Positions 11,527 to 13,913 of a stretch of DNA of 64,000 nucleotides are shown one piece after another (the first letter of the stretch is position 1; each line of letters opens with the position of its first letter). The stretch is from sequence record MH791411.1. One strand, 5' to 3'. Under the pieces are notes generated by a model that saw only the letters and a list, made by a program, of their open reading frames with translations, was not told the origin of the DNA and made no database searches. The stretch comes from Escherichia phage Ecwhy_1. A program made the translations under genes and the position numbers.

Positions 11527-11560
11527 AAAAAGGAGAGCAAATGCTCTCCTTTTCTTTTTT
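11527..11560. terminator. Bidirectional rho-independent terminator
   Basis: AAAAAGGAGAGC-AAAT-GCTCTCCTTTTCTTTTTT: perfect 8-bp GC-rich stem flanked by an A-tract and a T-tract; closes the giant ORF (+) and the ClpA-like gene (-). Confidence 0.75.
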
Positions 11561-13847
11561 ACGCAATAACTTTTTCTACTGCTTTAGTGCGTTTAGGTTT
11601 GATAGCCAATTTACCATCAATCACATCAAACGTCACGTTACCACCATTAACTAGAGAACCACACAACATCTCTTTAGCTAGTGGAACACGGATGTTTTGC
11701 TCAATAGTGCGTTTCATTGGACGTGCACCCATCCCAACTTTAACACCATTTGTTGCCAACCACTCACGTGCCGCTTTAGTCAGGGAAACTTTAACTTTGC
11801 GGTCTTTGATTTGTTCATTCAGACTACCCATGAACTTATCAATGATGCTGTCAATCGCTTCGCTGCTTAGGTCTTTGAATGTCACAATACTATCGATACG
11901 GTTGATGAATTCAGGTGGCAAGAATGCTTTAATAGCTTTATCTTGTGCTGTATCACTACCGCTCATCCCAATACTACGCTTGGTTGAATCTGCTGCACCA
12001 AGGTTAGTCGTCATAATAACAGTTACGTTATTGAAGTAAACAGTTTTACCTTGTGAACCAGTCAAACGTCCTTCGTCCAGAACCTGTAGGAAGGTTAGTA
12101 GTACTTTACGATCAGCTTTTTCGATTTCATCAAGCAACAGTACTGCATTCGGGAACTGCTCAATCTTGTCGAGTAGCAGACCGTTACCAGAATCGTGACC
12201 AACATAGCCTGGAGGTGAACCAATCAGTTTAGCAACAGTATGTTCCTGTGAAAACTCGGACATATCGAAACGAATCAGTTCGGAACCAGTTGCATCAGCC
12301 AGTGCTTTGGTAATTTCAGTTTTACCAGTACCAGATGGACCAACAAACATGAATGCACCTTGAACACTTGATTTATCACGCAGACCAGCACGAGCTACCA
12401 TCACGTTATCAACCAGTTTCTGTACTGCTTCTTCTTGACCGTATACACGAGAACGGAGTGCATCTGGTAGATTACGCATACGTTCACTTTCAGTGCAAGC
12501 AACCACGTTAATATCTAGGTTTGCGATACCTGCAACAACTTCTTGAATCAGTGCAACAGTGATGATGTTATCATCAGTTTCACGAGAACGTACTTTCGCT
12601 GCTGCCGCATCCATTAGGTCGATTGCTTTGTCAGGGAAGTGTTTGTTCTTCAGGAACTTATCACTTAGTGTAATAACTGCATCCATTGCTTCAGTACTGA
12701 ACTCTACGTTATGGAAAGTTTCATAAGTAGATTTCAAACCATTCACAATCGCACGGGTTTCATCAATTGTTGGCTCAACTACATCAATTTTCATGAAACG
12801 GCGAGTTAGTGCACTATCTTTTTCGATGTTTTTACGATATTCATCGTAAGTTGTTGCACCGATTACACGAATCTCACCACGAGATAGTGCAGGTTTGAGC
12901 ATGTTGCTCATATCCATAGAACCGTTGCTTGCTGACCCAGCACCAACCATAATATGGATTTCATCGATGAACACAATAGTGTTTTCACGTTTCTTCAGTT
13001 CTTTTAGTAGGTTATCGATACGTTCTTCGAACTCACCACGGTACTTAGTACCAGCAGTCAGTGCACCTACGTTCAGAGACAGAATTTCAACATCTTTAAG
13101 ATGCTCTGGTACTTCACCATCAGCGATTGCCTGTGCTAGACCATCAATGATTTGAGTTTTACCAACACCAGCTTCACCAGTCAGGATGGCATTCTTCTTA
13201 GTCTTACGGGCCAGAGTTTCAATCAGTGCAGAAAGCTCTTTCTGGCGACCAATCATTGGGTCAAGTTTACCTTCTTTTGCAAGTGCGGTTAGGTTAGTGG
13301 TGTAATCTTCTAAACCTTTTTGTTTGGACGATGGTTGCTGTTGTGCCACTTTTTTCTCCCCAGTTGGCTCATCACTAATGCTTTGAAGGTTGATTCCGTT
13401 GTCGATTGCTTCTACGTGCTTCTGTAGAGTTCGTGCTGCTTCAGTACAAGTGATACCCTCTTCACGCAATGCTGCTTCTAGTGCAGTATTTGGGAAGGAC
13501 AAACACTCAAACAGTACAAAATAAGCATCAATTGAGAAATCATCACGTTTAAGTTGCTCAATTACTGATTTCTTAGAAAGTTCCTGAACTACACGGTTCA
13601 CGAGAAGTGATGTGCGGTTCGCTTCATCACCATCAGCACTTTTAGGTGCATGTGGGAATGTTGTATTCTTCAGATATGCAATCAAACGACCGTGTAGGTT
13701 GTCTGCATCGATGTTCATATCTTCAAATACTGCTTTGATGCTATCGATTGTCAGTACTGTAGCACTTAGATGGTCAATAGTCAAGAATGTATGACCCAGA
13801 GAAGTTGCCAGTTCGTCGCTTTTTTTGAATAATTGGGTAAGATTCAT
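11559..13847 (-). CDS. ClpA-like AAA+ unfoldase (Clp N-domain plus two AAA+ modules, no ClpB middle domain)
   Basis: Walker A motifs GEAGVGKT and GPSGTGKT, ClpA/B-like KYRGEFEER and GARPMKR, and an SIGM tripeptide at the position of the ClpA IGL ClpP-docking loop. ATG at 13847 has AGGAGA 5 nt upstream; the track's GTG at 13871 is probably 5'UTR. Confidence 0.85.
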   Translation of the reverse strand: MNLTQLFKKSDELATSLGHTFLTIDHLSATVLTIDSIKAVFEDMNIDADNLHGRLIAYLKNTTFPHAPKSADGDEANRTSLLVNRVVQELSKKSVIEQLKRDDFSIDAYFVLFECLSFPNTALEAALREEGITCTEAARTLQKHVEAIDNGINLQSISDEPTGEKKVAQQQPSSKQKGLEDYTTNLTALAKEGKLDPMIGRQKELSALIETLARKTKKNAILTGEAGVGKTQIIDGLAQAIADGEVPEHLKDVEILSLNVGALTAGTKYRGEFEERIDNLLKELKKRENTIVFIDEIHIMVGAGSASNGSMDMSNMLKPALSRGEIRVIGATTYDEYRKNIEKDSALTRRFMKIDVVEPTIDETRAIVNGLKSTYETFHNVEFSTEAMDAVITLSDKFLKNKHFPDKAIDLMDAAAAKVRSRETDDNIITVALIQEVVAGIANLDINVVACTESERMRNLPDALRSRVYGQEEAVQKLVDNVMVARAGLRDKSSVQGAFMFVGPSGTGKTEITKALADATGSELIRFDMSEFSQEHTVAKLIGSPPGYVGHDSGNGLLLDKIEQFPNAVLLLDEIEKADRKVLLTFLQVLDEGRLTGSQGKTVYFNNVTVIMTTNLGAADSTKRSIGMSGSDTAQDKAIKAFLPPEFINRIDSIVTFKDLSSEAIDSIIDKFMGSLNEQIKDRKVKVSLTKAAREWLATNGVKVGMGARPMKRTIEQNIRVPLAKEMLCGSLVNGGNVTFDVIDGKLAIKPKRTKAVEKVIA

Positions 13848-13885
13848 GTATTCTCCTAAATGAGTAGTCACTCTAATTAATAAAC

Positions 13886-13913
13886 ATTATATCACATTCT
13901 TTGCGTTTGTCAA
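13886..13913 (-). promoter_or_regulatory. Sigma70-type promoter with extended -10, drives ClpA-like gene
   Basis: Minus strand reads TTGACA-N16-(TGTGa)TATAAT: -35 at 13908-13913, -10 at 13886-13891. Confidence 0.6.

What the first reader, a model, noticed from the sequence alone, without database searches (positions are those of the whole stretch)
11559..13913. Phage-encoded ClpA-like unfoldase with a candidate ClpP-docking loop, inserted antisense in the late structural block
The 762-aa protein has a Clp N-domain and two AAA+ modules (GEAGVGKT, GPSGTGKT) but no ClpB-type middle domain. Between Walker B and sensor-1 of the second module it carries KRSIGMSGSD at the position where E. coli ClpA has its IGL ClpP-binding loop. 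No clpP is present in the window. The gene is the only early-type transcription unit inside the plus-strand structural block, with its own consensus TTGACA-N16-TGTGaTATAAT promoter and a bidirectional terminator, which suggests a moron-like acquisition. A phage unfoldase that docks onto host ClpP could redirect host proteolysis.
Basis: partly seen in the sequence, partly recalled or inferred. Interest (0 to 1): 0.8.

Follow-up and report, generated by a model that had tools for sequence, protein, structure and literature searches.

The report
Jumbo-phage ClpA unfoldase; phage has ClpP
The gene is a real ClpA-type protein unfoldase of a RaK2/121Q-like jumbo coliphage, but it is an old, already annotated core gene whose likely partner is the phage's own ClpP protease, encoded outside the window, rather than the host's.

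Summary
Window 11559-13847 (-) encodes a 762-aa protein collinear with E. coli ClpA: two intact AAA+ modules, no ClpB/ClpC middle domain. IGM sits exactly where ClpA has its IGL ClpP-docking tripeptide. The perfect sigma-70 promoter and the bidirectional terminator are there, and the window holds no clpP.

- The window is 99.8% identical to Escherichia phage vB_Ec-M-J (Asteriusvirus).
- That genome carries its own clpP about 87 kb away (mislabelled "head maturation protease") and a ClpS-fold adaptor gene.
- ClpA, ClpP and the ClpS-like protein each occur in about 70 RaK2-like phage records, in largely the same genera.
- clpA keeps the same antisense slot in four genera, so it is ancestral, not a recent moron.
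- ATPase motifs are at least 95% conserved across 112 phage-clade clusters, but the docking tripeptide varies and 19 clusters lack the Gly.
- The phage ClpP pocket is remodelled.
- clpA and clpP have near-identical promoters.

Most likely this is the motor of a phage-encoded ClpA-ClpP-ClpS protease made from early or middle infection. Docking onto host ClpP is not excluded. GenBank and the literature already list the gene as ClpA-like, but no functional test turned up.

The parts
11559..13847 (-). clpA-like CDS, 762 aa plus stop codon
   Evidence: ORF list. 100% identical to annotated ClpA-like proteins of five listed Asteriusvirus records. Collinear with E. coli ClpA. Coordinates verified.
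13886..13913 (-). Sigma-70-type promoter TTGACA-N16-TATAAT with extended -10 (TGTGATATAAT)
   Evidence: 12/12 match. A TATAAT promoter is conserved at the same place in 121Q, phAPEC6, RaK2, CBB and Yen9-04. Same architecture as the phage clpP promoter.
13853..13857 (-). Shine-Dalgarno AGGAG, 7 nt upstream of the ATG at 13847
   Evidence: Sequence read; coordinates verified.
11527..11554 (.). Bidirectional intrinsic terminator shared with the convergent 3,333-aa virion protein gene (1524-11525, +)
   Evidence: Hairpin of 11-12 pairs with T-runs on both strands.
13398..13847 (-). Divergent Clp N-domain (aa 1-150), followed by a disordered linker (aa ~157-176)
   Evidence: Pfam Clp_N 21.5 bits, one repeat. 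19% identity to the E. coli ClpA N-domain. All-helical AF2 model, linker pLDDT below 50.
12558..13316 (-). AAA+ module D1 (aa 178-430): Walker A GEAGVGKT 13155-13178, pore loop KYRG 13035-13046, Walker B FIDEIH 12954-12971
   Evidence: Pfam AAA and AAA_lid_9. Motifs mostly >=95% conserved (all >=70%) in 112 phage-clade clusters. Coordinates.
11598..12530 (-). AAA+ module D2 (aa 440-750): Walker A GPSGTGKT 12318-12341, pore loop GYVG 12198-12209, Walker B LLLDEIEKA 12114-12140, sensor-2 GARPMKR 11709-11729, ClpB_D2-small fold
   Evidence: Pfam AAA_2 and ClpB_D2-small. Conservation. Coordinates.
11949..11987 (-). Candidate ClpP-docking loop STKRSIGMSGSDT; IGM at 11964-11972 (aa 626-628)
   Evidence: Aligns with E. 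coli ClpA I617-G618-L619. Translation. AF2 pLDDT below 50 for aa 624-630, between strand 608-614 and helix 634-642.

Best explanation
The gene encodes the hexameric ATPase/unfoldase subunit of a phage-encoded Clp protease.

Shown here:
- It is a ClpA-type double AAA+ protein with all catalytic and pore-loop motifs intact.
- It has a flexible loop at the ClpP-docking position.
- It is not a virion component.
- It has its own sigma-70-type promoter and terminator.
- The same phage genome (outside this window) encodes one ClpP with an intact catalytic triad and a ClpS-fold adaptor. It encodes no ClpX or ClpB detectable by BLAST, so this is its only detectable Clp ATPase.

Inferred:
- Host RNA polymerase transcribes clpA, clpP and the clpS-like gene early or in the middle of infection.
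- ClpA hexamers dock through the IGM loops mainly onto the phage's own ClpP tetradecamer. That ClpP has a remodelled binding pocket and an extra conserved C-terminal tail.
- Substrates, selected by the divergent N-domain and the ClpS-like adaptor, are unfolded, threaded through the KYRG and GYVG pore loops, and degraded.
- The targets are unknown. Candidates are host proteins, phage early proteins, or misfolded giant phage proteins.
For: - ClpA identity. The AF2 model matches E. coli ClpA chains from ClpAP complexes best by TM-score and identity (TMt mostly 0.73-0.88, best 0.84-0.88; 46-47% identity).
- Motif conservation: mostly >=95%, all >=70%, across 112 clusters.
- Phage ClpP (EcMJ_201): Pfam CLP_protease 1.3e-41 over 2-179 of 182 positions; 36% identity to E. 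coli ClpP; Ser/His/Asp kept in 8 of 8 phage genomes examined.
- A separate T4-type S77 prohead protease lies next to the portal and capsid genes, so ClpP is not needed for head maturation.
- tblastn of the whole genome finds exactly one ClpP and one ClpA-type ATPase, and no ClpX or ClpB.
- ClpS-like protein: the profile hits PDB ClpS first (E 4.7e-5). The AF2 model's top 35 PDB matches are all ClpS (TMt 0.69-0.91).
- Co-occurrence: ClpA at >=60% identity in 70 records, ClpP at >=60% in 69, the ClpS-like protein in 71, in largely the same genera.
- Promoters: the clpA and clpP promoters are nearly superimposable (CTTGT[T/A]GACAAA ... TGTGATATAAT). The clpS-like gene follows a perfect sigma-70 promoter.
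- All 41 perfect sigma-70 sites in the genome lie on clpA's strand, against about 0.75 expected (my estimate from base composition).
- Not in virions: CBB mass spectrometry lists the two flanking proteins but not ClpA. phAPEC6 lists gp245 and gp248 but not gp246c.
- Loop and pocket change together. RaK2 has IGV with pocket V60/Y82/F112. Salmonella phage 7t3 has MNM with L23/L24/C82/L92/K192.
Against: - There is no biochemical or genetic evidence for any phage ClpA-ClpP contact.
- clpA and clpP lie about 87 kb apart and are not in one operon.
- In the phage ClpP, 4 of the 12 hydrophobic pocket residues that contact the E. coli IGL loop are replaced non-conservatively (Y60T, F82S, L114G, A52S).
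- Only 63 of 112 clusters keep [ILVM]-G-[FLM] and 19 lack the Gly. Canonical docking may therefore be weakened or lost in some lineages.
- The loop-pocket covariation rests on seven loop-pocket pairs and is confounded by phylogeny.
- IGM with small following residues resembles ClpX's IGFGA (ClpX sequence from memory), so binding to host ClpP remains possible.
- The TIGR02639 ClpA score (751.6) is below NCBI's equivalog cutoff of 993.
Confidence: 0.62

Rival explanations
1. One reading: the phage ClpA docks mainly onto the host ClpP and redirects host proteolysis.
For: - I617 and G618 are conserved and L619 is conservatively M. R614K and S616 are kept.
- The loop is at the canonical position and is flexible.
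- Host ClpP is abundant at the time a sigma-70 promoter would fire (general knowledge).
Against: - The phage encodes its own intact ClpP, conserved wherever ClpA is.
- The tripeptide varies (IGM, LGL, IGV, IGA, IGG, MNM, MSM, MGM and others) among phages of enterobacteria. Their ClpP pockets are, to my knowledge, essentially identical, which is not what a fixed host target predicts. That host conservation was not tested here.
- I620, H621 and Q622, which contact E. coli ClpP, are S, G and S in the phage protein.
Confidence: 0.2
2. It is a ClpP-independent chaperone or remodelling unfoldase, for example one that helps fold or assemble the giant tail and baseplate proteins among which it is encoded.
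For: - The position next to the 3,333-aa virion protein is conserved in four genera.
- The docking tripeptide is degenerate in part of the clade while the ATPase motifs stay mostly >=95% conserved.
- In PA5oct-like phages clpA lies next to dnaJ, and the Atu_ph07 paper lists ClpA gp292 and DnaJ gp293 (PMC6102473).
- Iyer et al. 2021 suggest a translocase or assembly role (PMC7824862).
Against: - The gene has its own sigma-70-type promoter, and no late-type (ATAAATA) motif was recognised by eye in the clpA upstream region.
- ClpP and a ClpS-fold adaptor co-occur with it throughout the clade and share its promoter type.
- 93 of 112 clusters keep the loop Gly, flanked on the N-terminal side by a hydrophobic residue in all but two.
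Confidence: 0.15
3. It is a recent moron, a host clpA captured and inserted antisense into the late block.
For: The gene has its own promoter and terminator and opposes the orientation of its neighbours. Its GC content (41.9%) is slightly above the window mean of 37.7%.
Against: - It is only 41% identical to E. coli ClpA and belongs to a monophyletic phage clade with internal divergence down to 53%.
- The locus is syntenic in four genera.
- GC3 is 32%, within the phage range (z about 1.5).
- In the genome's own orientation clpA is on the majority strand; it is the tail block that is inverted.
Confidence: 0.02

Closest known systems
E. coli ClpA (ClpAP/ClpAPS protease; PDB 1ksf, 6w1z, 7uiv)
   Same: - Same N-domain, D1, D2 architecture and near-identical length (762 vs 758 aa); no middle domain.
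- Walker A/B, KYRG and GYVG pore loops, Arg fingers and sensor-2 are all present.
- The docking loop lies between sensor-1 and the D2 Arg finger, with I-G conserved.
- The AF2 model superposes on ClpA protomers of ClpAP complexes at TMt mostly 0.73-0.88 (best 0.84-0.88).
   Different: - Overall identity is 41% (N-domain 19%, D1 50%, D2 45%).
- The tripeptide is IGM rather than IGL, the loop is 3-4 residues shorter, and I620/H621/Q622 become S/G/S.
- The score is below NCBI's ClpA equivalog cutoff.
- The gene is phage-encoded and is not adjacent to its clpS.
ClpA-like proteins of RaK2-like jumbo phages (121Q gp581, RaK2 ORF069, CBB_235, GAP32_229, phAPEC6 gp246c)
   Same: This is the same gene: 100% identical to the protein of five listed Asteriusvirus records, 92.8% to 121Q, 75% to RaK2 and 61% to CBB. 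The genomic slot is the same. Attai et al. 2018 note that ClpA is highly conserved in most RaK2-like phages (PMC6102473).
   Different: Nothing at the gene level. The tripeptide differs between subclades. 121Q has the same IGM; an 86%-identity Escherichia subgroup has LGL, RaK2 IGV and CBB/GAP32 LGM or MGM.
Other phage-encoded Clp components (PA5oct/MIJ3 ClpA with ClpP; Atu_ph07 ClpA, ClpP, ClpS, ClpX, ClpB; jumbo-phage ClpS and ClpP noted by Iyer et al. 2021)
   Same: These are large myophages that carry ClpA together with ClpP, sometimes also ClpS and DnaJ.
   Different: PA5oct-type ClpA is no closer to this protein (40%) than bacterial ClpA is, and it keeps a canonical IGF. Its genomic context differs, lying next to dnaJ.
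ClpB/Hsp104 and ClpC
   Same: Same class-1 Hsp100 double AAA+ core, with strong scores.
   Different: ClpB and ClpC carry a coiled-coil middle domain and align with this protein only in two stretches. ClpB lacks the ClpP loop (general knowledge). This protein has no middle-domain insertion.

Membership tests
ClpA (class-1 Hsp100 ATPase partner of ClpP) | Two AAA+ modules with intact Walker A/B, pore loops, Arg fingers and sensor-2 | tested here: met
   Pfam AAA, AAA_lid_9, AAA_2 and ClpB_D2-small. The motifs align with those of E. coli ClpA and are mostly >=95% conserved (all >=70%) in the phage clade.
ClpA (class-1 Hsp100 ATPase partner of ClpP) | No coiled-coil middle domain between D1 and D2 | tested here: met
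   One collinear stretch against ClpA (17-741 vs 20-734), but two stretches against ClpB, ClpC and Hsp104. The AF2 secondary structure shows no long coiled-coil insertion.
ClpA (class-1 Hsp100 ATPase partner of ClpP) | [LIV]-G-[FL] ClpP-docking loop after D2 sensor-1 | tested here: inconclusive
   Position met: IGM aligns with I617-G618-L619. M is not the canonical third residue. Across the clade only 19 of 112 clusters are strictly [ILV]G[FL], 63 of 112 are [ILVM]G[FLM], and 19 of 112 lack the Gly.
ClpA (class-1 Hsp100 ATPase partner of ClpP) | N-terminal double Clp_N repeat domain | tested here: inconclusive
   Pfam Clp_N finds one repeat at 21.5 bits (cutoff 20.7). The TIGR02639 alignment starts at residue 3. 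Identity to E. coli is 19%. The AF2 model is helical with pLDDT 54-89.
ClpA (class-1 Hsp100 ATPase partner of ClpP) | Score above the curated equivalog cutoff (NCBIfam TIGR02639 / NF008263) | tested here: not met
   751.6 bits against a cutoff of 993.15, and 648.7 against 1350. ClpA is still the best family, by 114 bits over ClpB.
ClpA (class-1 Hsp100 ATPase partner of ClpP) | Physical binding to ClpP and ATP-dependent degradation; ClpS binding by the N-domain | not testable with these tools
   Only indirect evidence: conserved co-occurrence with the phage ClpP and ClpS-like protein, and shared promoter type.
ClpB/Hsp104 disaggregase | Long coiled-coil middle domain; no ClpP-docking loop | tested here: not met
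   No middle domain. A loop is present at the docking position.
Phage moron (recently acquired autonomous gene cassette) | Own promoter and terminator | tested here: met
Phage moron (recently acquired autonomous gene cassette) | Patchy distribution among close relatives, foreign composition, close cellular donor | tested here: not met
   The gene is present and syntenic in four genera. GC3 z is about 1.5. The nearest bacterial ClpA proteins are only 39-43% identical.

The most novel reading that the evidence does not exclude
RaK2-like jumbo phages carry an orthogonal ClpA-ClpP-ClpS machine, with three proposed features:
- Its ATPase-peptidase docking interface (short IGM-type loop, remodelled ClpP pocket, conserved ClpP C-terminal tail) has co-evolved away from the host's. 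The phage protease would then neither be titrated by host ClpX/ClpA nor feed host ClpP.
- Its adaptor has altered N-degron residues (N34D, D36P, M40A, H66N) and an extra ~65-aa N-terminal domain, which would give it a new substrate code.
- It is switched on from host-type promoters to destroy specific host proteins, for example defence or restriction proteins, or phage early proteins.
Probability: 0.25. Interest if true: 0.65.

Novelty: already known. Interest (0 to 1): 0.3.

Why it matters
The gene itself is not a discovery. An identical protein is already deposited and labelled ClpA-like, and reviews of jumbo phages mention phage ClpA, ClpP and ClpS.

What is worth keeping is the corrected picture: this phage clade carries a full, conserved ClpA-ClpP-ClpS set, not a lone unfoldase that borrows host ClpP. 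Three features are hints of an interface and specificity of its own:
- a variable docking tripeptide next to invariant ATPase motifs;
- a remodelled ClpP pocket;
- shared promoters for clpA and clpP.

I found no functional study of any phage-encoded ClpA in the searchable literature. What these systems degrade during infection therefore looks open, and it can be tested with standard ClpP-trap and knockout experiments.

Tried and rejected
- **ClpB/Hsp104 or ClpC with a cryptic middle domain.** Rejected: the protein aligns collinearly with ClpA, and the AF2 model has no coiled coil.
- **Recent acquisition from the host.** Rejected by synteny in four genera, a monophyletic phage clade and ameliorated composition.
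- **ClpA as a virion or injected protein.** Rejected for CBB and phAPEC6 by the published virion proteomes.
- **The phage ClpP as the real prohead protease**, as annotation pipelines label it. Rejected: a separate S77 (T4 gp21-type) protease lies in the head module.
- **EcMJ_400, labelled 'ATP-dependent protease', as a peptidase.** It is a ClpS-fold adaptor.
- **A second Clp ATPase in the genome (ClpX or ClpB).** None found by tblastn.
- **Rfam scan of the window.** No matches.
- **Literature searches for experiments on phage-encoded ClpA.** Only genomic mentions turned up.
- **Technical note.** Two early scripts failed because several loci are stored together in one FASTA file. One script repeated the same error; it was fixed.
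Full report
**Observation**

Window 11559-13871 (-) is an open reading frame. The likely start is the ATG at 13847, which has AGGAG 7 nt upstream. This gives 762 aa, the length annotated in GenBank relatives.

- Pfam finds AAA, AAA_lid_9, AAA_2 and ClpB_D2-small.
- NCBIfam ranks ClpA (TIGR02639) first at 751.6 bits, ahead of ClpB at 637.5, but below the curated cutoff of 993.
- Against the PDB the protein aligns in one stretch with E. 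coli ClpA (E 5.6e-178, 17-741 vs 20-734). ClpB, ClpC and Hsp104 align only in two stretches, so there is no middle domain.
- 'krsIGMsgsd' aligns with ClpA 'rksIGLihqd'. IGM is at 11964-11972.
- An AF2 model (mean pLDDT 79.3) has a low-confidence loop at residues 624-630, between the sensor-1 strand and a helix. It shows no coiled-coil insertion.
- The model superposes best, by identity and TM-score, on E. coli ClpA protomers of ClpAP complexes (TMt mostly 0.73-0.88, best 0.84-0.88; 46-47% identity).
- The N-domain is real but divergent: Clp_N scores 21.5 bits and identity to E. coli is 19%.
- No ClpP is encoded in the window.

**Where the window comes from**

The region is 99.8% identical to Escherichia phage vB_Ec-M-J (Asteriusvirus, 378.6 kb) and 83% identical to the 121Q/PBECO4 group. 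[quoted passage not shown] It is 92.8% identical to 121Q gp581 'ClpA-like protein' and 75% to RaK2 ORF069. Attai et al. 2018 state that ClpA is highly conserved in most RaK2-like phages. Iyer et al. 2021 mention ClpA, ClpX, ClpP and ClpS in jumbo phages.

**The phage has its own ClpP and a ClpS-like adaptor**

I read the whole vB_Ec-M-J record.

- EcMJ_201 is labelled 'head maturation protease' and lies about 87 kb from clpA. It is a ClpP: Pfam CLP_protease 1.3e-41, 36% identity to E. coli ClpP.
- The true prohead protease is a separate S77 enzyme in the head module.
- tblastn over the full genome finds exactly one ClpP and one ClpA-type ATPase, and no ClpX or ClpB.
- EcMJ_400, labelled 'ATP-dependent protease', is a ClpS-fold protein. 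BLASTP against E. coli ClpS gives 3e-5. A family profile hits PDB ClpS entries first. The AF2 model's top 35 PDB matches are all ClpS (TMt 0.69-0.91).
- EcMJ_400 has an extra N-terminal domain of about 65 aa. Several N-degron pocket residues are changed (N34D, D36P, M40A, H66N), while D35 and T38 are kept (residue roles from memory).
- In the phage collection, ClpA at >=60% identity occurs in 70 records, ClpP at >=60% in 69, and the ClpS-like protein in 71, in largely the same genera.

**Not a moron**

- clpA occupies the same antisense slot, between the ~3,330-aa virion protein and the next structural gene. This holds in Asteriusvirus, RaK2, CBB, Yen9-04 and phAPEC6.
- The phage proteins form one clade with internal divergence down to 53%. 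They are only 39-43% identical to bacterial ClpA.
- GC (41.9%) and GC3 (32%) are high-normal for the window (z about 1.5).
- In the record's orientation clpA is on the majority strand; it is the tail block that is inverted.

**Expression**

- A sigma-70-type promoter with a perfect TATAAT box is conserved upstream of clpA in six phages of four genera.
- The full genome has 41 perfect TTGACA-N16-18-TATAAT sites, all on clpA's strand, against about 0.75 expected (my estimate from base composition). Twenty-four of them lie in the terminal repeats full of small early genes.
- The extended -10 TGTGATATAAT occurs at 11 sites, all on that strand. These include clpA, clpP, a second ClpP-fold protein (EcMJ_208) and an AAA ATPase. 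The clpA and clpP promoters are almost superimposable.
- The clpS-like gene follows an IF3 homologue behind a perfect promoter.
- ClpA is absent from the published virion proteomes of CBB and phAPEC6, although its neighbours are present.

**The docking interface**

Across 112 phage-clade clusters the ATPase, pore-loop, Arg-finger and sensor motifs are mostly >=95% conserved (all >=70%). The tripeptide is not:

| Tripeptide class | Clusters (of 112) |
|---|---|
| [ILVM]-G-[FLM] | 63 |
| Strictly [ILV]-G-[FL] (subset of the above) | 19 |
| x-G-[A/G/V/H/Y] | 28 |
| No Gly (MSM, MNM, LNI and others) | 19 |

Lopez et al. list the E. coli ClpP pocket residues that contact I617-I620. In the phage ClpP:

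- Y62 and M92 are identical.
- L23M, L48V, F49W, I90V, F112L and L189I are conservative changes.
- Y60T, F82S, L114G and A52S are not conservative.
- A conserved C-terminal extension of about 20 aa is added.

Loop and pocket change together in the few pairs examined. RaK2 has IGV with V60/Y82/F112. 7t3 has MNM with L23/L24/C82/L92/K192. These phages infect enterobacteria whose ClpP is, to my knowledge, nearly invariant; that was not tested here. A variable loop therefore fits a co-evolving phage partner better than a fixed host partner. This is an inference from seven loop-pocket pairs and is confounded by phylogeny.

**Verdict**

The interpretation needs correcting: this is the ATPase of an ancestral, phage-encoded ClpA-ClpP-ClpS system, not a lone moron unfoldase that must borrow host ClpP. 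Cross-docking to host ClpP and a ClpP-independent chaperone role both remain possible. I found no functional data in the searchable literature. The gene is already known and annotated, so interest is modest.

Noticed in passing
window 43179-43325 (promoters) with genes 41685-43013 (-) and 40200-41609 (-): A 55-nt direct repeat 92 bp apart (82% identity) places two near-consensus sigma-70 promoters with TGTGATATAAT-type extended -10 in tandem. They lie upstream of a weak-AAA ATPase (442 aa) and a DUF2201 metallopeptidase-like/VWA protein (469 aa), which may be a MoxR/VWA-like pair (my interpretation). These two genes have two of the three highest GC3 values in the window (0.39 and 0.31; clpA is 0.32).
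   Followed up: partly
complete genome OQ718158 (loci L004-L011); window site 13886-13913: All 41 perfect TTGACA-N16-18-TATAAT sites and all 11 TGTGATATAAT sites lie on one strand, against about 0.75 perfect sites expected from base composition. Twenty-four of the perfect sites are in the two 21.5-kb terminal repeats.
   Followed up: partly
L005:36301-36909 (OQ718158 85301-85909, EcMJ_208), outside the window: A second, very divergent ClpP-fold protein of 202 aa (Pfam CLP_protease 20.6 bits) with a hydrophobic N-terminus. Its promoter is of the same TAGACA-16-TGTGATATAAT type as clpP. Its function is unknown.
   Followed up: no
L009:7243-8305 (OQ718158 252243-253305), outside the window: The ClpS-fold gene lies directly downstream of a phage IF3 homologue, behind a perfect sigma-70 promoter. 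The ClpS-like protein carries a conserved beta-rich N-terminal domain of about 65 aa with no detected homologue.
   Followed up: partly
window 23958-28892 (+) and 29042-34741 (+): Two very long tail-fibre genes have 40.6% GC but only about 16% GC3, the lowest in the window. They contain long antisense ORFs (for example 30709-32346, 545 aa) that are probably artefacts of composition.
   Followed up: no
window 20784-22925 (+): This is a single 713-aa ORF, whereas the 99.8%-identical phage vB_Ec-M-J annotates two adjacent 'colanidase tailspike' genes. It could be a fusion, a split, or an annotation difference in the receptor-binding module.
   Followed up: no
window 1524-11525 (+): A 3,333-aa virion structural protein converges on clpA and shares its terminator. 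It is detected in CBB and phAPEC6 virions, and a protein of about 3,330 aa occupies the same position in every relative examined.
   Followed up: partly
protein cluster P0001: The identical ClpA protein is also filed in NCBI under 'AAA family ATPase [Escherichia coli]'. Jumbo-phage contigs therefore seem to sit inside some E. coli assemblies.
   Followed up: no
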